NCBI RefSeq assembly: GCF_006345805.1
Contig: NC_042997.1
Span: forward strand, 20,770,001-20,834,000
DNA from: Octopus sinensis
Lineage: Eukaryota
Reading direction: 5' to 3'
Length of the DNA stretch: 64,000 nt
Shown: piece by piece, positions 5,920-61,991 of the stretch
Numbering within the stretch: position 1 is the stretch's first letter
Layout of the letters: each line of letters begins with the position of its first letter
Translations under genes and position numbers: made by a program
The notes under the pieces: generated by a model
The model's database searches: none
What the model saw: only the letters and a program-made list of their open reading frames with translations
Told to the model about the DNA's origin: nothing

Positions 5920-6763
5920 AATTATTTCTTCTATTAATAATATTTTCTAAACCCTATTTGATAAGTATCATCTCTTTTATATTAATGCAACAGAAAAAGT
6001 TATAAAAATACTGATGAGAGTTCTAATTTATGTTAAAAGACCTCATAATTGGACTGTCTCTTGTTTGGTTGTAAACTCGAGGCTTGATAAAATTTGAATT
6101 GATTCTAAATTAGTAGAATGTTATCTCCATCAAGTCACTATGTACAGACTGGCAGTAAAACAAACTTCATTCACTATGAAGATCCTCGTATACAGCAGAA
6201 ATGTGCTGTAATAAATAAATTGATATATCTAATAAATGAGAAGAATTTTTGTATCAATTCTAATAGAAAGAGAAGACTAATACTAGTCTCGTCGAATTAA
6301 TCATTTTAATGTTGTTTTCTTTGGTCTCAAGTAGAGTTATTGTTTTCTATATACATTAAAAAAACAGTGAACACATATACAGAAGCTATAAATTTTTTTA
6401 CAAATTTTGCTAAGATTTTCCATATTGAAATTTGTTTTATAATGATTTTTTGGAAGTAATACTCACCATATTATTATTTTGTTCAGTTTATCAATGTATT
6501 CATCATATTTAATTCACTTTCAATGAGAATGAAAAAAAAAGAAAAACAATGTCTTTTGTTATTGACCAGATAATCAAAACCTGTAAACCTAAAGAAGATA
6601 TTTTCTTTTAAAGCAAAGCCAAACTTTTCTTTAATTCATAAATAAATAAACTCATTGAACAGTTAATACAATAATTATTTCTTCTATTAATAATATTTTC
6701 TAAACCCTATTTGATAAGTATCATCTCTTTTATATTAATGCAACAGAAAAAGTTATAAAAATA
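5920..6763 (+). repeat. 91-bp exact direct repeat pair (5920-6010 and 6673-6763)
   Basis: aattatttcttctattaataa...gaaaaagttataaaaata occurs twice, offset 753 bp. Confidence 0.9.
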
Positions 6764-11143: not shown

Positions 11144-11512
11144 GTATATTTGTTTATTGCTGAAATAATCCTATCAGTCCACTATACTAGAGTGATGCTT
11201 TATTTTATCAATTCTGAAAGAATTACAGATCTCAACAAAATTTGAACTTAGAATGTAAAGAACTAAATTCCAAAAGTTCTTTTGTCTGGTGTTCTAATCC
11301 TCCTGGCATATAAAGAGACTCAACATAAATACAACGCTAGATAACCAGTGTATACATAAATATTCACACACACACACACATGAGTGTTGTCTAGAAAGTA
11401 ATGCCTGTTAATATTATATAACTACAGGATACAAAGGGTATTTGATAACATTTAATTTATATATTACTCTCTTCAAACCAATTAAAAGGTTATTATTTCT
11501 TTCAGATACCCC

Positions 11513-12612
11513 ATGGCAGACAGAGTGCTAATAGAAGAAATGGAAACACATACAGTCATTGTTGCTGTATGTGCAGAAAACAGTGATTTAGAAATTGCCA
11601 ACTTTCAAAATGCTGCAAGATCTTCTGCACACAAAGTTCAGATGGAATTAGAAGCCTCTGGTGGCAATGTTTCAACTGTATCAAGAGGGAAAAACATACT
11701 AAGCATTTCTTCACTAAAAATACTATTATTCATCAAATGTGATCAAAATATTATTGATGATGACCTAAAAAAATCAATGAGAGCTTTTGCCAAACAACTT
11801 CAGGTGTTGGAATGAACTATCAGAAATGTGATGCATGAGATTATTTGTTGCAAGTCACATATATTGATAAGAGATCAATTCCTGCCTGCAAAGACACAGC
11901 AGGGAAAACGTTTAAACCATGCCAAAAGGTTGCTTAACAAGATAAAAAACCCTCATAAAAACACGACATGCTTTGAGTCTTCTCTGATGAGAAAACTTTG
12001 AAAAAGACCATCCAAGAAATGAGAGATGGTTATGTGCCAATTCTTCAAATGTCACCTGCAGTGCACACTAAGTTTCCGGCAACTGTGATGATTTTACAAG
12101 TAGTGAATAATGAAGATCATGCTATGCCACATCATATCTTTCCATAGAATCTTAGAATTACTACTATTTAATACATTGAGGGGCTAGAAAAAGTTTCTAA
12201 GCCTTGCATAGTTGAAGTATGTAGTAGACGACCATACACATTTCAGCAAGACTTGGCACATTTTCTCAAAGCCCATATATATTCCTTTACTACCCACAAG
12301 GGGCTAAACATAGAGGGGACAAACAAGGACAGACAAAGGGATTAAGTCGATTACATCGACCCCAGTACAAAACTGGTACTTTATTTATCGACCCCGAAAG
12401 GATGAAAGGCAAAGTCGACCTCAGCAGAATTTGAACTCAGAACGTAATGACAGACGAAATATCGTTAAGCATTTCGCCCGGCACGCTAACGTTTCTGCCA
12501 GCTTGCTGCCCATATAACCCAAGAATGAATTTTAGACATTCTATATGATTATGTAACATAAAACTTGGGACTGCAAGTCAGTAGATTTAAATTCCATGTA
12601 CTACTGCATTTG
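11513..12612 (+). pseudogene. Decayed Tc1/mariner-superfamily transposase (DD37D/maT-like), interrupted by a SINE
   Basis: ORF 11513-11815 gives an N-terminal HTH-like region. Downstream broken frames read VFSDEK, HTKFPATVMIL..HIFP, RPYTFQQDLA and DLNSMYYC, matching the FSDE / FQQD / SPDLNPxDY motifs. Confidence 0.85.
12280..12510 (-). mobile_element. tRNA-derived SINE family B inserted in the transposase
   Basis: Minus strand begins ggcagcaagctggcagaaacgttagc, contains a B-box-like gagttcaaattc, and is flanked by a catata TSD (12274-12279 / 12511-12516). Confidence 0.9.
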
Positions 12613-14845: not shown

Positions 14846-14999
14846 TTAAGGCTAGAAGAAATATTGCAAATCATTGTCAGACAAACCTAACCCAATATGA
14901 TCTCTATCTCTCTATCTCTCTTTCTCTCTATCTCTCTCTCACTCTTTCTACCTCTCTCTCTCTATGTAATTATCTTCAATACCAATGGGATGACCGGCC

Positions 15000-15380
15000 C
15001 CACACCATATGTTACTAAGGATGTGAATATGGCTACATCCCATGTTTATAAATATATTGGATCTGCCAGTACTTTTTTCAAACGAAACTTTCTTAACCAC
15101 TGGTCATTCTTCAGAGTCCCAGAAAAACGGTTAGTCATGTCCCTGGCCCGCCTTGTGTGGCACCTCAAAGATCAAGAGACCCTGTGTGATATAAGGGGGG
15201 AAATAATTGATTATCCAGGCCCATATATTAAAGGAAGTAGCTGTTGCAAAATCTGCATCGTAGAGAGAGCCAAAATTCTTAAGGTCTATACAAAACTTGG
15301 CATTTTAAATAGTCATTAAGAAGTGTTTTCTAAATGTGTCCACTTCAAGCACTACCTATTGGTAGCGTTTGCTGGTTAGG
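15000..15380 (+). pseudogene. Penelope-like element GIY-YIG endonuclease C-terminal fragment
   Basis: YKYIGSASTFFKRNFLNHWSFF...SLARLVWHLKDQ...PYIKGSSCCKICIVERAKIL...LNSH*EVFSKCVH matches the PLE endonuclease pattern YIG-x-FKxRxxNHxxSF...CxLCxxE...LN...SKCRH. Confidence 0.85.
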
Positions 15381-15651
15381 CCTTTTCAGGTCTATAAGGG
15401 TTATTTTATCCTCTGGTTCAACGGAGATAACCGGTTCTCATTAAAATCTTTTTGTTAAAATGTGTATCTCAATTTCTGAGCGTTTCCTCATGTCAACGAT
15501 GTAGAAATTTAAATTTTGTCTTTATATAGAGTCTGACGAGTTGTCCACAAGGCATCTATGCAAATGGCGGGCTTTTTCGAATTGCATTTCGATAACAACG
15601 TGCTTATTCGGAACAAAAATTCAGTACTGAATATACTCCGGTTAAATTTAC

Positions 15652-16264
15652 AATTTAAAAATAGGATAAAATCTTTATGAGAATTTATCAAGTAGTTAGC
15701 GTGAAAAACCTCAAAAGAGAAAAAAGCCATCAATTTTTTCACTTAAATATATTTATTCATATTATATAGAGGGCATTACTATAGATAAATGCCACACGTT
15801 AGGAGGGACTCTTAAAGTCAAAACTACCAAAGTAAATAAACAGATCGTACCAATTTACATAGATGTATAAAGGGTGAACATTTCTATATGCTACGTTGGA
15901 TACATTGGTTGTTCGTCTGGTATGTTGATTTTGTTCATTTGTTATAAATCTTGAATTGTGCTTGCACTGATGATTAAAAAGTGCATTACTGCACTAATTA
16001 CGAAAACACGGTGATCTGCAGCTAAATTCAGTTTTTAAATGACTTGCTGCGAGAGTTGCATTCGGTACGATGTGTTTATTTATTTTGGTAGTTTTGACTT
16101 TAAGAATCCCTCCTAGTGCGTGGCATTTATGCATAGTAATGCCCTCTATATAATTTAAATAAATATATTTAAGTGAAAAAAATGGTGGATTTTTTTCTCT
16201 TATGAAGTTTTTCACGCTAACTACTTGATAAATCATTATAAAGATTTTATCCTATTTTAAAATT
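15652..16264. repeat. ~200-bp diverged inverted repeat pair (15652-15850 / 16064-16264), probably inverted PLE pLTR ends
   Basis: aatttaaaaataggataaaatctttat...atcgtacc versus ggtacgat...aagattttatcctattttaaaatt; directly downstream of the GIY-YIG fragment and ending in (TA)n. Confidence 0.8.
15963..16022 (+). ncRNA. Degenerate type I hammerhead-like motif
   Basis: tgca-CTGATGA-...agtgca(ttac)tgcact...-CGAAA-acacggtga-TC-tgca. Stem I closes, but the bases of stems II and III are mismatched. Confidence 0.4.
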
Positions 16265-16322
16265 ATATATATATGTATGTATATATGCATATATTTATAT
16301 ATTATTTATATATATATTTATA

Positions 16323-16515
16323 CTTTATTTAAAGCAGCAGAAAATTCAACAAAACCTGTTACTCTGAGTTTCACGTTGCCGTTCGTCGGACAGTTTTTAC
16401 TCAGAGTAACAGGTTTTGTTGAATTTTCTGCTGCTTTAAATAAAGCATATTACTCTACCACTGTTATTTGAGTACTCTTTTTTTCCACCTTGTTTCACAT
16501 TTATGTGTTTACTCC

Positions 16516-16517
<2 letters not shown>
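16323..16517. mobile_element. Fold-back mini-element (47-bp perfect inverted arms plus ~72-bp tail) in (TA)n, PLE-derived candidate
   Basis: Arms 16323-16369 / 16399-16445; tail ends actccgg then (TA)n; second copy in opposite orientation at 61816-61991. Confidence 0.85.
16356..16393 (-). ncRNA. Minimal type I hammerhead ribozyme fold with variant core (CCGACGA)
   Basis: Minus strand: ctgt-CCGACGA-acg(gcaa)cgt-GAAA-ctcagag-TA-acag. Stem I ctgt/acag, GNRA-capped stem II, near-palindromic stem III, GUA triplet. Confidence 0.7.
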
Positions 16518-19417: not shown

Positions 19418-20442
19418 TTAATAGATAACCAATCTGTTCAACTTGCTACAATTCACTAACTTTATTCATACACAAATTTTCATATTAACATACATAGATC
19501 AGTGACTAAATGACATGGTGAGGTGTGAAGATTACTAGCCTCTTAATCAAGGTCACCCATGTACAATACTTTTGAACATGCTATTTTATCTGGTTAGCAC
19601 AGTGATTTAACATTTGGTTTCATTCCAGAGATATCTTTTACCTTATAAGTTCATTTCTTAGTTTTATATTTACTGCTTCGCAATCTAAATACATCTGAAG
19701 TTCAAAGGATAATATTAACAATCATGTGAACTATTGGGTTATTCTAGAACATGCATTCCACTATATTAATGTCTCCAGAAGGTGCAGTCTTTGTTCCTCA
19801 GAGAAGTATTCTTTCTATTTTGACCTTTTACAATTTTGAATAAAAGATGGACATTGGTATATTTTCACTGATGCCTTTCATCACTATTTATATATTTCTC
19901 CTTTGCATATAAAATTGATTCATACCTCTAGTAGATGGGTGAATATTAAAAGAAAAATACCTATAACTTCCTCAAGTAGTTCTAGCTATTCTGTTTATTT
20001 CTCATCAGATTAAAAAATTACTGTAATAAAGAAAACTACCAGATAAATGCAAGAAACAGAAAAAATTATTTGCAGCTGTATTTTTTATACAAGGAAATAA
20101 GAAAATTTAACCTGTAAGAATGTCAGAGAGAATTAGGAACTGGCTTTCAAAATAGAAAATTCCTCAAACTAAATTTTTGGGTTTTATTATGTTTTATGGT
20201 AATAAAACTAAGGTATAAATTGAATTAAAACCTGTTTTTGATTAAGTTTTTTTGTATTTTTCAGCGTCTGATCAGAAACAACAAGCATTACTAAACTTAT
20301 AATGGCCATTTAATTGATTTTTCTCTGCCTTATTAATCACAAAGTAAGGTTTGTTCGCAATAGTTTTACAATTTGGTTTCCATGCAGAACATGTCGCCAA
20401 GTATTTGTCTGTAATTCTTATTAGAATTCATCACACCATTCA

Positions 20443-28538: not shown

Positions 28539-29648
28539 ATAGTGTAATAAATAAAATATATGCATACATACAAACATATATGTACGTACCGACATCTACA
28601 TGTATATATACATGCATATATAAATATATATACGTACAGGACACCACAAGAAGACGTAAAAATCAACAGAAACGAAAACGGAAAAGCCATTTTGTTACAA
28701 CAGAAGGACAGAGACGTGGAACAAGACGAAAACGAAATCGGGAAAAACAATTAGGTACAGCAGAAAAACGAAGTACAGGACATACTACACAAGGAAAAAT
28801 CCCCTTCATCAGCTGTCGCTAGCAGACATAGCGTGTTTCGAAGGCAAGACAGGACACGTCTGTCATGCTAGGCCCTCCTACGAGAGAATTAAAATAAAAT
28901 AACCTCGTAGAGGGGTAAAACGAGCAAGAAAAAAATGTAACACAAAAAGCGAAGTAACAAAGAACTGCACAAAAAAAACAAGAAAAAAATACAAAATTAA
29001 AGATACATGTACAAGAAAATACAAAACGAGAATTAAATTACAATACGAGAAATCAAAATAAACAAGAGAACAAACGAAAAAGACGAACGAAGGCCTTTGT
29101 TCTGGCGGGGACGAGAAGGTAACTGGCGAGCGCTGGGAAACACGACCTTAGGGCCTGAATGCAACAGGCGAAAGGATCAGCAGTGACGAAAGTGAGGAGT
29201 GGGAGAGAGAGAGAGACAGATAGAGGAAGACACAGGCTAGAGAGAAGGGTGAGGCAGAGAGAGAAAGAGAGAGGGGAAGGCAAAGCAAAGGGAGAGAATT
29301 TCGCATCATTGTAGTAAACTGTAAAACAAACTGGGAGGAAAGAGACGGAACGAAGTGAAAATTCGAAAAATCGAAAATTCAAACGAACTCGACGCGAAGC
29401 GCTGACAGACAATAGTGTAATAAATAAAATATATGCATACATACAAACATATATGTACGTACCGACATCTACATGTATATATACATGCATATATAAATAT
29501 ATATACGTACAGGACACCACAAAAAGACGTAAAAATCAACAGAAACGAAAACGGAAAAGCCATTTTGTTACAACAGAAGGACAGAGACGTGGAACAAGAC
29601 GAAAACGAAAACGGGAAAAACAATTAGGTACAGCAGAAAAACGAAGTA
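28539..29648 (-). mobile_element. Non-coding element with 237-bp direct terminal repeats (pLTR-like), in microsatellite context
   Basis: 28539-28775 and 29412-29648 differ at two positions seen. No TG..CA/PBS/PPT LTR signature. HHR-like motifs on the minus strand at ~28801-28871; CpG-rich relative to flanks. Confidence 0.75.
28801..28871 (-). ncRNA. Hammerhead-like remnant
   Basis: Minus strand: ctagca-tgac-agac(gtgtcct)gtct-tgccttC-GAAA-cacgctat-GTC-tgctag-cgacag-CTGATGA-agggg. A 6-bp stem I ctagca/tgctag flanks GAAA..GUC, but the upstream core box is defective and an intact CUGAUGA lies downstream. Confidence 0.4.
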
Positions 29649-29653
29649 TACAT

Positions 29654-29734
<81 letters not shown>

Positions 29735-29768: not shown

Positions 29769-29968
29769 ACATGTATATAATTTTAAGCAGTTCTATGCTA
29801 TGAGTTTTACATACTCCTAACAAGAGCCCAATTCTTTCAGACATTTGAATGTATTTAGAATGCCTTTGGTTCAACATTCCAAAACTTGAAAGAGTCAGGC
29901 TCTTGTTAGGGGCCTATGAAAATTGAAGAAGCACTGAACTGAATCAGACTGTTTTAAATAATACGTGT
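29769..29968. repeat. Imperfect ~200-bp palindrome (MITE remnant or hairpin)
   Basis: cctaacaagagcc (29816-29828) / ggctcttgttagg (29898-29910), plus nested ctttcag/ttgaaag and gaatgt/acattc, and outer cagttc/gaactg pairings. Confidence 0.65.
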
Positions 29969-30130
29969 AACTTCTACTGAATGTGTTGAATGACCTTTGC
30001 TTCTATTTGCCCAATCATATATATATATATATATATAAAATATTATTAGAGACAAAACCACTATTTTGCAAAACAAACAAGGAAAGACTTAATCAATACA
30101 TAAAATTTTAATAAATAGTCAAAAAAACCG

Positions 30131-30173
30131 CCACTACAATCGTTTCTTGTCTTGATCGACAATCTTCAGGTGG
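30131..30173 (-). ncRNA. Minimal type I hammerhead ribozyme
   Basis: Reverse complement of 32058-32100. Confidence 0.8.
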
Positions 30174-32057
30174 ACTTCCAATCTAAAAAATCAAAATTTT
30201 AAAATATAAAAATAATAATTTTAAATAATTAAAGTATAAATGAAAAAATATAAGTATATAATCCATATATAACCTATATATATCCATCGAAAAAATTAGA
30301 CAAATTACCACGAATTCCCTAAAAAAACCATGATAAAACAAAACTCTTAAAACATATAACGATAAAATCCCTTTGCTAAACTCTATAACAAACCTATATA
30401 GTAATCCCCCTAACCTAAACATTCACACACAAATACCACACGTAAACCACAGACCACGACTTATACACATACCTATACTAACTTATAAACTCAATATACA
30501 CCAAAACCCTCTCCCTCCCCACACAGACAAATTAACACATACATCCCAAAACCTAAATAACAAACCCATATACACATTCAACACAAACACACACACACAC
30601 GCAAAACACGCACACACAACAGATACATATACTCCCTCACTATCGCATATACATACTCACTAAACTCGACATATACAACAATACTTACACACCCACAAAA
30701 ATCATTATATACATTTATGAGCTTTAACTTACCTTAGCAGCTCTAACAAACAACTTGCAGTAACCCAATCCATTCTCTATGCCTACCTCACTACTACAAA
30801 TTCCATTCACAATTCCAAGCAACGCTAGTCCACCACCCAGTTATTCACGTGGCAAAACGAACACCACTCAAAAATTATGAATGAAACAATGTAAAAAAAT
30901 AACCACATCGAAAATAGACAAATTACCACGAATTACCTAAAAAACCATGATAAACCAAAACTCATAAAAGCATATAACGATAAAATCTCCTTTGCTAAAC
31001 CCTATAACAAACTTATATAGCAATCCCCCTAACCTAAACATTCACACACAAATACACACACGTAAACACAGACCCAAAACTTATACACTTAAACCTATAC
31101 TAACTTATAAACCTCAATACACCAAAACCCACTCCCTCAACACACAGACAAATTACAATACATCCCAAAACCTAAATAACAAACCCAAATACACATTCAC
31201 ACACAAACACACACACACGCAAAACACACACAACAACAGATACATATACTCCCTCACAAATACGCATATACATACTCACTAAACTCGATATATACAACAA
31301 TATATTTACACACCCACACTCATACAGATAAATAAATTAATATACAACTAAAAACTCACAACCAATCTCATATACATAAACACTCCTATGAAAACAACAT
31401 TAAATACATCGTAATTAACCAGAATATCAAAAATAACAATATGACATAAGGATAAATCAAATACATACTTACAATTCAGTTACAAATTATGAAGTGAAAT
31501 TAAATTCTTAGCCGTTAAAAAACCAAACAAAAATTACGTTACCATAGAAATAACTTATGTAAAAAAAGAATACGCGCCATAGAAAGTAAACGCGCCATAG
31601 AAAGTAAACGTCATTCAAAATATGAATGGAGAAATATAAAAAATGGAACTAAAAACTATATCCACGTAGCAAACCAACGCTACTTGTGTTAATTTGTCTG
31701 TGTGGGGAGGGAGAGGGTTTTGGTGTATATTGAGGTTTATAAGTTAGTATAGGTATGTGTATAAGTCGTGGGTCTGTGGTTTACGTGTGTGTATTTGTGT
31801 GTGAATGTTTAGGTTAGGGGGATTACTATATAGGTTTGTTATAGAGTTTAGCAAAGGGAGATTTTATCGTTATATGTTTTAAGAGTTTTGTTTTATCATG
31901 GTTTTTTTAGGGAATTCGTGGTAATTTGTCTATATTTTTTCGATGGATTATATATAGGTTATATATCGATTATATACTTATATTTTTTCATTTATACTTT
32001 AATTATTTAAAATTATTATTTTTATATTTTAAAATTTTGATTTTTTAGATTGGAAGT

Positions 32058-32100
32058 CCACCTGAAGATTGTCGATCAAGACAAGAAACGATTGTAGTGG
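32058..32100 (+). ncRNA. Minimal type I hammerhead ribozyme
   Basis: ccac-CTGAAGA-ttgtc(gatcaa)gacaa-GAAA-cgattg-TA-gtgg: 4-bp stem I, 5-bp stem II, near-palindromic stem III (acgattgt); predicted cleavage after 32096. Confidence 0.8.
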
Positions 32101-32279
32101 CGGTTTTTTTGACTTTTATTAAAATTTTATGTATTGATTAAGTCTTTCCTTGTTGTTTTGCAAAATAGTGGTTTTGTCTCTAATAAATTTTATAATATTT
32201 TACTATAAAATTGGATTTAATCCTAAACTGATTTTTTCCCTGTAAATTTGGATTTATTCCTAATATTTATATTATATAT

Positions 32280-32323
<44 letters not shown>

Positions 32324-32619
32324 CACTTAATAAGACAGAAAGAAATGAAATAGCATACCTCTGTTGGATGTGTAATGCCAGCATGCTTAAACACTTGGTT
32401 TAATAGATCTTCAGAAGCACAGCATTCTGGTTGCTGCACTTTCTAGTATTCCTATTTCCCTTCCTGATCTCAAGTTTGAGTTTGCTATGGTTGCTCCCTT
32501 CGAGTTGTGTTTCTGCTATAGCCATTTCTCCCAACCCTAGCTAGGTTAATTATATTAACATCATTACTACTTATTATTGATCCACTATTATGGAAATTGC
32601 TTCACCTATGCACATTTTG

Positions 32620-34400
32620 TGCTGCTATAATCTGCATGAAATACCAGCTATTAGAAAAGGTGAGCTGGATTTTATACTTATAAACACATGGTATTTGCTG
32701 TTTTTTTGAAAATATTTCTCTAATGCCAAGTAGAATAATTTGGGAATGTTGGAAAGAATTTGCTTTCTGAAAGGAATTATATGCCAGTTTTTTTTCCAGT
32801 TATCTAGCATACTGCAATTATTGTTAGGATTGTCCTTCTTACTACATTTATTTATTCTATTGCTATTATTGTTGTAGATCTTTAATTTTTCTCTATACCC
32901 CACCTTTTCTAGTGCTAAATTATAAAAGTCTTCATTTAGTTAGAAAATTTCTTCATTCGCTTGACAGGTTAGAAATACAGGCAAATATATTTACTACTAT
33001 TGACTGGGTTATACATCAAGGGTGATTACTATTTTTATGTATTTGGCTTGTGATAAAGTTTATACATCTCTGCACTTAGATCTATTGATATGGACAGTCC
33101 TAGGTTCTTAAAATTAAAAAACAAAATTCTCTATTGCTACATATCTCTAAGTTTGAGGGGAATTCCCTGTTTAGGCTAAATAGCATATATATTTCTTTCT
33201 AAGTTCGTAACTTGTGTGGAGTCTGTTGATCCCATAGTAATATCAAACATCTCTGGTCTCTCCTTTCTAACCCAATACTTATCCTCGAATTTGATCATTG
33301 ATTTTCTAGCTGCTAAAATAACACCTATTTTTTCTCTAATTAGTTTGGTGTTATTCATAGCAGGGATGAGTGCCTTGTTTAGGAGAAGAGGGTTAATAGG
33401 GGTGTAATAATTAGAAATATCAATTTGCATTAATTGTGTACTATTTGTATTAGGGAGATTAACGAACTAGTTAATAACTTTGTAAAGAACTAGACCAGAG
33501 TTTCAGCTTAATTATGTTCCTTAGAGAGCGTGTATACTTATCTATTATATGTTTCCTTATCCTACCAAGGACATATGAGTTAGTGTTAAAATTTGGTTTT
33601 AACACTTAAGATTAATACTAGGGGTTCTAGTGTCATAGGATTCAGTTTTATTATATACCCTATATCTTCCATATTATAGCTTTGGCTTGCATGTTAGGTT
33701 GTTGGGATTCGTGTCTTTGTAGTTTCTAGTGATTTCTTTTTAAATAGTGCATGGTTATTAGAGTGGCATAAGGGGTACTAGCTACTGGTTATGTCTGTGT
33801 ACCCCAATATTCATTCCATCTTTAAGGCAGTAAGCTGGCAGAAATGTTAGCATGCCGGGCAAAATGCTTAGCGGTATTTTGGCTGTCTTTATGTTCTGAG
33901 TTCAAATTCCACCATGGTCAACTTTGCCTTTCATCCTTTCAGGGTCGATAAATTAAGTGCTAGTTGCATACTGGGGTCGATCTAATCGACTGCCCCCCCC
34001 CACAAATTTAGGGCCTTGTGCCTAGAGTAGAAAAGAAAAGAATATTCATTCCTTCTTCAGAAGTTTTTTAGTTATAGAGTGTAGTTTCTGAAGGTGTTTA
34101 TTCCTTCTTAGGGGGAATCCTTTGAATTTGATGTTTTTAATTATATTCCATAGTTCATCTTCGAAAGCAGCTACGTTTTGGTTTGGGGGTGGATATTTCC
34201 TAGTTTTGAAGATTTGCTGTAACTGTAACTGTTCATCTCTTTTCTTGCTGCTGAAATCTGCTTATTTTCAGTCATGGAAGTACGCATGCCATCTCAATCT
34301 ATGTATGAATGAGTTGGTTTTGCTGATATATTCCTTCTTTGATGGTAGTGAAATATCCTTGGGGGATGTGTCAATGTTAATTAACTCCATTCTCAGGTAC
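32620..34400 (-). pseudogene. Decayed Penelope-like element reverse transcriptase body
   Basis: Minus-strand frames: SPKDISLPSKKEY..FIHRLRWHAYF..FKTRKYPP..FEDELWNIIKNIKF; QIDISNYYTPINPLLLNKAL..ARKS..WVRK..FDITMGSTDSTQVTNL; IIPFRKQILSNIPKLF..KYFQKNSKYH. These match the PLE RT type with FDVTMGSxDGAE and WFNPPF motifs; split by a SINE. Confidence 0.88.
33825..34040 (+). mobile_element. tRNA-derived SINE family B inserted in the PLE
   Basis: aggcagtaagctggcagaaatgttagc...gagttcaaattcc...; 19-bp TSD with 2 mismatches (33806-33824 / 34041-34059). Confidence 0.92.
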
Positions 34401-61815: not shown

Positions 61816-61991
61816 CCGGAGTAAACACATAAATGTGAATCAAGGTGGAAAAAAAGAGTACTCAAATACCAGTGGTAGAGTAATATGCTTTATTTAAAGC
61901 AGCAGAAAATTCTACAAAACCTGTCCGATGAACGGCAACGTGAAACTCAGAGTAACAGGTTTTGTAGAATTTTCTGCTGCTTTAAATAAAG
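61816..61991. mobile_element. Second fold-back mini-element (37-bp perfect arms plus tail) in (TA)n
   Basis: Arms 61888-61924 / 61955-61991; tail 61816-61887 is the near reverse complement of 16446-16517. Confidence 0.88.
61921..61958 (+). ncRNA. Minimal type I hammerhead ribozyme fold with variant core (CCGATGA)
   Basis: ctgt-CCGATGA-acg(gcaa)cgt-GAAA-ctcagag-TA-acag; predicted cleavage after 61954; stem I extendable to 37 bp. Confidence 0.72.

What the first reader, a model, noticed from the sequence alone, without database searches (positions are those of the whole stretch)
30043..32270. 2.2-kb head-to-head element with two divergent hammerheads, the same architecture at larger scale
Seen: ~500-bp near-identical inverted arms each carry a clean minimal HHR (30131-30173 minus, 32058-32100 plus). 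Only the right arm has an ~85-bp tail, both ends abut (TA)n, and the interior is non-coding, very G-poor on the plus strand, with a diverged ~410-bp direct repeat. The sequence is unrelated to the mini-elements but the layout (short arm, inversion, long arm plus tail) is the same. Inference: a second ORF-less PLE family; read-through transcription would give a 500-bp dsRNA stem with a self-cleaving site in one arm.
Basis: partly seen in the sequence, partly recalled or inferred. Interest (0 to 1): 0.72.

Follow-up and report, generated by a model that had tools for sequence, protein, structure and literature searches.

The report
Head-to-head Penelope-type insertion with two hammerheads
This 2.2-kb mirror-image repeat is real and is most likely the footprint of one insertion by an abundant Penelope-like jumping gene, which left two cut-short copies of its non-coding, ribozyme-bearing end joined head to head; that layout is already known for these elements, and whether this family lacks its own enzyme gene is still open.

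Summary
Observation confirmed. The arms 30029-30539 and 31685-32198 are 97.7% identical and carry identical type I hammerheads facing outwards. A 75-84-nt tail lies on the right only, with (TA)n at both ends. The reading needs correcting. This is not two arms around a filler: it is a 1,656-nt tail-less copy (minus strand) joined to a ~585-nt tail-bearing copy (plus strand) of one template. Each copy holds sequence the other lacks, so neither is a fold-back of the other. In public contigs the whole interior is high-copy, and 12 other head-to-head junctions appear at other positions, so the inversion is likely rebuilt at each insertion. An inverted 5'-truncated copy, a one-sided tail, a (TA)n target and opposite-strand hammerheads are all published Penelope-like element (PLE) features (e.g. 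Penelope-13_HM, Hydra clade). ORF-less status is unproven, about 50%: no ORF in 1.66 kb, but other copies continue upstream. The proposed self-cleaving dsRNA arm is unlikely: the ribozyme is predicted to work as a dimer and to be fully paired with its antisense copy. The host is likely an octopus. New member of a known kind; interest 0.3.

The parts
30014..30036 (.). Left (TA)n tract, likely half of the insertion target
   Evidence: sequence
30029..31684 (-). Long tail-less copy (about 1,656 nt), 5'-truncated at 31684, non-coding, U/G-rich and C-poor on its sense strand; outer end ambiguous between 30029 and 30043 in AT-rich DNA
   Evidence: high depth over its whole length
30131..30173 (-). 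Type I hammerhead, identical to the right one; predicted cut after 30135 on the minus strand
30285..30697 (-). Internal direct repeat, copy 1 (the right arm starts inside this copy)
30698..30905 (-). Spacer A; other copies carry extra sequence at 30842/30843
   Evidence: loose ends and records 25 and 28
30906..31318 (-). Internal direct repeat, copy 2 (90% to copy 1, period about 619)
31319..31684 (-). 5'-most retained segment B, with an 18-bp tandem duplication at 31572-31610; other copies continue beyond 31685
31684..31685 (.). Head-to-head junction: asymmetric, no palindrome, at most 1 nt of overlap
31685..32269 (+). Short tail-bearing copy (about 585 nt), 5'-truncated at 31685
32058..32100 (+). 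Type I hammerhead: 4-bp helix I, CUGAAGA core, 5-bp helix II, GAAA, self-complementary helix III segment, GUA cut after 32096
32195..32269 (+). One-sided PLE tail (75 nt; up to 84 nt if the shared end is set at 32186)
32263..32320 (.). Right (TA)n tract
32700..34390 (-). Flank, not part of the element: decayed PLE reverse transcriptase gene of another, low-copy element
   Evidence: tblastn E 7e-11; near single-copy depth over 32400-33000

Best explanation
The 2.2-kb structure consists of two differently 5'-truncated copies of the same non-coding, hammerhead-bearing sequence joined head to head inside a (TA)n tract, and is likely the footprint of one recent insertion made by a Penelope-like element (PLE) enzyme. 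Shown here: the two copies, their one-sided tail, their shared rare alleles, the abundance of the family, and other head-to-head junctions in other copies. Inferred mechanism: a PLE reverse transcriptase/GIY-YIG protein cut both strands of the (TA)n target and primed one cDNA on each DNA end from uncleaved RNA of one source copy. One cDNA started at the proximal start site (about 98 nt 3' of the ribozyme cut; no tail; ran 1.66 kb). The other started at the distal site (about 173 nt 3' of the cut; tail; ran 0.59 kb). The two unfinished cDNA ends were then joined by end-joining. The ribozyme is family cargo, predicted to cut only as a dimer or with protein help, and to be masked in any read-through transcript of this locus. 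The clade is probably Hydra (about 60%, by ribozyme style and target). Whether the source family has its own ORF is about 50:50.
For: (1) Neither copy can be a fold-back of the other: the left has 1,145 nt the right lacks, the right has a tail the left lacks, and the junction has no primer homology. (2) Both copies carry G32111 and C32113, where 68-99% of public depth reads A and T, which points to one source template. Only 1 substitution separates them, so the event is recent. (3) Summed contig depth over the interior is about 400-4,800 times the unique flanks in three runs, and 3.5-5.6 times higher again at the ribozyme end, a 3' bias as expected of target-primed reverse transcription (rough, not a copy number). 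(4) 12 distinct head-to-head joints at other positions appear: 10 of the 15 joints shown in table 5, plus 2 more in table 5c; 47 joints were not shown. (5) Two copies of an unrelated mini family in this window have the same layout with different junctions and 72-nt tails; the tail-bearing arm is the more truncated in 3 of 3 elements. (6) Literature: inverted 5'-truncated copy, one-ended tail and (TA)n target (PMC8557442, passages). Penelope-13_HM is listed with an inverted 5'-truncated copy and a hammerhead on each strand (its supplement). Opposite-strand hammerhead pairs were reported and tied to truncated PLEs (PMC4209133). A purified PLE protein cuts and extends both strands, starts at two internal sites that define the tail, is predicted to be a dimer, and does not need ribozyme cleavage (PMC11167929). 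(7) Co-folding two ribozyme copies gives the textbook dimer as the lowest-energy structure, -21.4 kcal/mol against -6.5 for one copy.
Against: No partner ORF was tied to this 3' end. No listed contig spans the window's own junction or the empty site (most records were not shown). The tail (75-84 nt) is longer than the 30-40 nt described in print. No target-site duplication can be read inside (TA)n. 11 of the 12 other joints come from one run (X1) and cluster at an AT-rich palindrome (32120-32129), where library fold-back is a rival cause, although their depths of 64-464 are at or above single-copy level. The two-ended priming model is my inference: PMC11167929 (parts 1-2 of 4 read) does not claim it for inversions, and PMC3846280 (Discussion) prefers self-priming on an antisense template. 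The 3-of-3 tail rule has a 1-in-4 chance of agreeing by luck.
Confidence: 0.85

Rival explanations
1. On the nature of the template: it is a true non-autonomous (ORF-less) PLE family longer than 1.66 kb, mobilised in trans.
For: No ORF and no PLE protein match inside the element (best tblastn E 0.63 with 162 PLE endonuclease or RT proteins). Depth does not fall from segment A to segment B (A/flank 3686, 3309, 395; B/flank 4802, 3735, 450). The interior is structurally fluid across copies (42-bp duplication at depth 6737, deletions of 106 and 399 bp). The Hydra families listed as complete total only 2.1-2.7 kb including the ORF.
Against: Copies continue 5' of 31685, and some carry 128-203 or more extra nt at 30842/30843, so the full unit is unseen. 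Autonomous Pen1_Av carries a 0.9-1.5-kb non-coding spacer before its 3' pLTR (PMC3846280). Recently active Penelope insertions in O. vulgaris average about 5.5 kb (329 insertions, 1.80 Mb; PMC13282606). Internal repeats can inflate the depth plateau.
Confidence: 0.5
2. On the nature of the template: it is the long 3' non-coding region of an autonomous PLE, and this locus is simply two truncated products.
For: 3' depth bias of 3.5-5.6 times; copies continue upstream; truncation with inversion is the norm for autonomous PLEs.
Against: 1.66 kb without coding remnants; flat depth over the inner part; six 11-12-mers from the 3' end found no related PLE in the PMC8557442 supplement (1 chance hit in a Chlamys ORF), and the Hydra-1_Obim ribozyme differs by eye.
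Confidence: 0.45
3. On the inversion: it arose by self-priming or fold-back (on an antisense template, as proposed for rotifer Penelopes), not by priming from both target ends.
For: PMC3846280 Discussion; the X1 joints cluster around a 10-bp palindrome.
Against: This junction has no palindrome or primer homology, and each arm holds sequence missing from the other.
Confidence: 0.15
4. The inverted arm is an assembly artefact (missed-adapter or fold-back read).
For: 11 of 12 differing columns are small indels, typical of long-read error; no listed contig bridges the junction.
Against: The junction is not a centre of symmetry; the tail is family sequence seen in all four runs yet absent from the left arm; two other elements in the window have the same build; the layout is a published PLE signature.
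Confidence: 0.04
5. It is a non-LTR retrozyme, or a fold-back/MITE-like DNA transposon with 500-bp terminal inverted repeats.
For: Non-coding, type I hammerhead; long terminal inverted repeats.
Against: No head-to-tail hammerhead repeats: the 619-bp duplication excludes the ribozyme. The ends are asymmetric because of the tail, and junctions vary between copies.
Confidence: 0.05

Closest known systems
Hydra-clade EN+ PLEs, especially Penelope-13_HM (Craig et al. 2021, PMC8557442; passages, section 11, supplement parts 2 and 53)
   Same: (TA)n target; hammerhead near the 3' end in the same style (4-bp helix I, CUGANGA plus U, short helix II, AC...GU helix III; closest by eye Penelope-5_HM); inverted 5'-truncated copy giving two divergent hammerheads
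   Different: No ORF in the 1.66 kb retained; much longer non-coding region; 75-84-nt tail; no sequence match to the listed families
Penelope/Poseidon PAc of Anolis (Frangieh et al. 2024, PMC11167929; parts 1-2 of 4)
   Same: Two ends downstream of the ribozyme separated by a tail; first end about 90-100 nt past the cut site; AT-rich target
   Different: In PAc the ORF starts inside the ribozyme and the tail is coding; here it is non-coding and longer
Opposite-strand hammerhead pairs in Schistosoma (Cervera & de la Pena 2014, PMC4209133; parts 1-2 of 4)
   Same: Two hammerheads close together on opposite strands, read as truncated PLEs; dimer-dependent design
   Different: Spacing here is about 1.9 kb against about 100-700 bp; helix III is present; no G10.1-C11.1 pair
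Non-autonomous Chlamys elements such as MRC1 (PMC8557442, passage) and animal non-LTR retrozymes (PMC7229834, passages; bioRxiv 10.64898/2026.07.22.740005, part 1 of 5 and passages)
   Same: Non-coding, high-copy, presumed PLE-mobilised
   Different: Retrozymes are short (about 200-400 bp in the examples seen) head-to-tail repeats with a ribozyme per unit; this family is dispersed and longer than 1.6 kb, with one ribozyme per copy

Membership tests
EN+ Penelope-like element insertion | Inverted 5'-truncated copy next to the 5' end | tested here: met
EN+ Penelope-like element insertion | Tail on one end only | tested here: met
   75-84 nt, longer than the 30-40 nt in print
EN+ Penelope-like element insertion | Type I hammerhead near the 3' end, dimer design | tested here: met
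   (motif and fold prediction only; no cleavage assay)
EN+ Penelope-like element insertion | Dispersed copies with 5' truncation bias | tested here: met
   depth ratios, (rough)
EN+ Penelope-like element insertion | Hammerhead helices conserved among copies | tested here: inconclusive
   none of the 40 substitution rows or 12 indel rows shown falls inside either ribozyme, but 46 and 48 rows were not shown
EN+ Penelope-like element insertion | Target-site duplication or empty-site allele | tested here: inconclusive
   both ends lie in (TA)n; flank contigs stop at the TA runs
Autonomous PLE | RT plus GIY-YIG ORF in the same element | tested here: not met
Hydra clade | (TA)n insertion and canonical hammerhead | tested here: met
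   not exclusive to the clade
Hydra clade | RT/EN motifs (RWK, DKT, no CCHH) and phylogeny | not testable with these tools
   no ORF linked to this 3' end; no genome held
Naiad clade | Absence of a canonical hammerhead | tested here: not met
   canonical hammerhead present (PMC8557442)
Non-autonomous PLE family | Defined full-length unit without ORF, sharing a 3' end with an autonomous partner | tested here: inconclusive
   5' end unseen, copies continue past 31685; no partner found
Non-LTR retrozyme | Head-to-tail repeats with a hammerhead in each unit | tested here: not met
   (this locus only)

The most novel reading that the evidence does not exclude
A young, dispersed, ORF-less PLE parasite longer than 1.6 kb, with thousands of copies, is spreading through (TA)n in octopus-like genomes. 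Each insertion can build its own near-perfect inverted repeat by priming from both target ends, with the tail-bearing strand usually the shorter. The family would then be a large natural record for testing two-ended PLE priming, and a possible major source of the perfect dsRNA that octopus ADARs hyper-edit.
Probability: 0.35. Interest if true: 0.55.

Novelty: new member of a known kind. Interest (0 to 1): 0.3.

Why it matters
The layout itself is textbook PLE, so the locus alone is ordinary. Its value is as a handle on an open question: how PLEs make inverted copies and tails. A family with very many young copies lets one count junction positions, tail sides and arm lengths and so choose between two-ended priming and antisense self-priming. 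This locus already disfavours simple fold-back. If the family proves ORF-less it would add a long, dispersed non-autonomous PLE to a short list. Octopus is reported to have unusually much near-perfect dsRNA-forming sequence and hyper-editing, and Penelope is heavily edited in lizard (PMC5625713, passages). Head-to-head PLE insertions are a candidate source, untested here.

Tried and rejected
No whole genome is held, so no genome-wide copy survey or 5' walk was possible. Rfam: no hammerhead match in the whole window at E<=1 or in 31950-32270 at E<=10. Pattern scans: 0 matches in metagenome contigs in 2 scans; 1 match in viral contigs, lacking helix I and the rest of the motif, so chance. Earlier-findings look-ups by place and by sequence were empty. 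Word-index protein searches with the endonuclease remnant and a transposase-like fragment found nothing; Pfam named neither the 7 window frames nor 4 of 5 PLE proteins. The idea that the neighbouring decayed RT gene (34390-32700) belongs to the element was rejected, because its depth is near single-copy. The idea that this gene continues into the left flank was inconclusive: E 0.009, within the range of 30 random pieces. Homology between spacer A and segment B was rejected: score 20 against a shuffle mean of 20.2. No RNA holder is on record; X8 is only guessed to be RNA, and its cover is no evidence of expression. The bacterial promoter scan was at chance level and is not relevant. The ribozyme and tail monomer folds are no more stable than shuffles. 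Literature searches for Octopus + Penelope + hammerhead ribozyme, for Penelope + twin priming, and for non-autonomous Penelope found no description of this family or of the two-ended model for PLE inversions; the library lacks most subscription papers. The O. vulgaris repeat library (Zenodo, PMC13282606), Repbase/Dfam and the bioRxiv supplements could not be seen and may already hold this family.

Full report
What is there. The window is animal DNA, rich in microsatellites and repeats. The host is likely an octopus. This is inferred: the second-best relative of an endonuclease remnant elsewhere in the window is a named Octopus bimaculoides protein at 41% identity, and the repeat landscape fits from recall. 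Arms 30029-30539 and 31685-32198 match in 506 of 518 columns, with one substitution and otherwise small indels. Each arm has the same type I hammerhead, the only two strict hits in 64 kb, against 0.01 expected per shuffled window. The interior has a 90%-identical direct repeat, 73 G in 1,145 nt on the plus strand, and no Met-started frame above 79 aa. Both ends meet (TA)n.

Re-reading the anatomy. Taking the ribozyme strand as sense, the structure is two copies of one sequence. A 1,656-nt copy on the minus strand (31684 to about 30029) ends about 98 nt past the ribozyme cut site. A copy of about 585 nt on the plus strand (31685-32269) runs a further 75-84 nt, the tail. Each copy has sequence the other lacks, and the junction shows no palindrome and at most 1 nt of overlap. 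Neither copy can be a fold-back of the other. This argues against a missed-adapter assembly artefact and against simple self-priming at this locus. Both copies share G32111 and C32113, where 68-99% of public depth has other letters, so they likely come from one source copy in one event.

The family. 22 public runs from 11 studies and six organism labels hold part of the element; I laid four of them. Summed contig depth over the interior is about 400-4,800 times that of the unique flanks, and the ribozyme end is 3.5-5.6 times deeper still. The tool warns that this is no copy number, and overlapping short contigs inflate it; I read it as hundreds to thousands of copies at least. Single features give a floor: one 42-bp duplication has depth 6,737 where unique contigs of that run have about 27-43. 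Other copies go on beyond 31685, carry extra sequence at 30842/30843, and show internal deletions and duplications. Twelve head-to-head joints at other positions appear: 10 of the 15 joints shown in table 5 and 2 more in table 5c, with 47 joints not shown. Eleven come from run X1 and lie about 10-28 nt downstream of the cut site, next to an AT-rich palindrome; one from X2 joins 30551 to 31826. Library fold-back is a rival for the X1 set. No listed record spans the window's own junction or the empty site, but most records were not shown. No listed substitution or indel falls inside the ribozyme (40 and 12 rows shown; 46 and 48 not shown), which fits conservation without proving it.

Neighbours. 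Two copies of an unrelated mini family (16323-16517 and 61816-61991) have the same build, 72-nt tails and different junctions. In all three elements the tail-bearing arm is the more truncated. PLE endonuclease remnants lie at 14975-15370 and 19684-19827, and a decayed RT gene at 34390-32700. The RT gene is near single-copy and so is not this family's ORF. No PLE protein matched inside the element (best E 0.63, 162 proteins).

How it likely works. Shown elsewhere in vitro: a PLE protein cuts and extends both strands of AT-rich DNA, starts reverse transcription at two internal RNA sites whose distance is the tail, and does not need ribozyme cleavage (PMC11167929, parts 1-2 of 4). Inferred here: one cDNA was primed on each end of the cut (TA)n target, one from each start site; both stopped early and were end-joined. 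This accounts for the outward-facing ribozymes, the single tail, the unequal lengths and the variable junctions. The published alternative is self-priming on an antisense template (PMC3846280, Discussion), which expects junction palindromes; this junction has none. The ribozyme's helix III segment is self-complementary, and two copies co-fold into the dimeric hammerhead (-21.4 kcal/mol against -6.5 for one copy), as described for metazoan PLE ribozymes (PMC4209133). A read-through RNA of this locus has one sense ribozyme, and in both full-length folds all 43 of its bases pair with the antisense arm (-79 kcal/mol for that duplex against -5.4 for the active monomer fold). The dsRNA stem is plausible if the locus is transcribed; self-cleavage within it is not.

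Comparison and novelty. Craig et al. (PMC8557442; passages, section 11, supplement parts 2 and 53) describe inverted 5'-truncated copies, one-ended tails and (TA)n targets as typical. They list Penelope-13_HM with an inverted copy and a hammerhead on each strand, and report an intact Hydra element in O. bimaculoides. Cervera and de la Pena noted opposite-strand hammerhead pairs in 2014. The ribozyme's style is closest by eye to Hydra-clade motifs, but the clade cannot be tested without an ORF. The family matched none of the elements in that supplement, and my searches found no paper describing it; repeat libraries I could not see may hold it. Whether it is ORF-less is about even. For: 1.66 kb non-coding, flat inner depth and a fluid interior. 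Against: an unseen 5' continuation, and precedent for long non-coding spacers in autonomous PLEs.

Verdict. Real, well explained as a PLE-type insertion footprint (0.85), a new member of a known kind, interest 0.3. The boldest reading left open is a long, ORF-less, high-copy PLE parasite whose insertions record two-ended priming (probability 0.35, interest 0.55).

Noticed in passing
window 32700-34390 (-): Decayed PLE reverse transcriptase gene (tblastn E 7e-11 to an unnamed 813-aa RT/EN protein; Hydra-like by eye), ending about 380 bp from the element's right end; continuity into the left flank was inconclusive.
   Followed up: partly
window 14975-15370 (+) and 19684-19827 (+): Remnants of PLE GIY-YIG endonuclease genes (best E 7e-29 and 6e-7); the first resembles the end of Hydra-1_Obim by eye.
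   Followed up: partly
window 16323-16517 and 61816-61991: Two mini head-to-head elements of one family, with 72-nt tails, different junctions, and a hammerhead with a variant core (CCGA) whose 3' half resembles Hydra-2_aMil/aJap by eye; in the second, the tail-bearing arm begins at the ribozyme cut site.
   Followed up: partly
window 28539-29662 (-): Partial tandem with 254-bp direct repeats (97%). The minus strand carries GAAAC about 26 nt BEFORE CTGATGA, as in the Octopus Naiad 3' end seen in a paper supplement (by eye). The Naiad 'half-core' might be a permuted hammerhead.
   Followed up: no
window 32106-32124 (public run X1): Eleven distinct head-to-head joints centred 10-28 nt downstream of the ribozyme cut site, beside a 10-bp AT palindrome: either a hotspot of ribozyme-less mini insertions or library fold-back.
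   Followed up: partly
window 15643-16273: 210-bp inverted arms (89%) around a 212-bp spacer, ending at the TA tract next to the first mini element.
   Followed up: no
window 11486-11815 (+): Fragment that looks like a Tc1/mariner transposase N-terminus (from recall); Pfam and one homolog search did not confirm it.
   Followed up: partly
window 5920-6010 and 6673-6763: Perfect 91-bp direct repeat around a 662-bp AT-rich insert.
   Followed up: no
window 29805-29921: Weak 48-bp inverted repeat (73%) with a 21-nt loop in the left flank.
   Followed up: no
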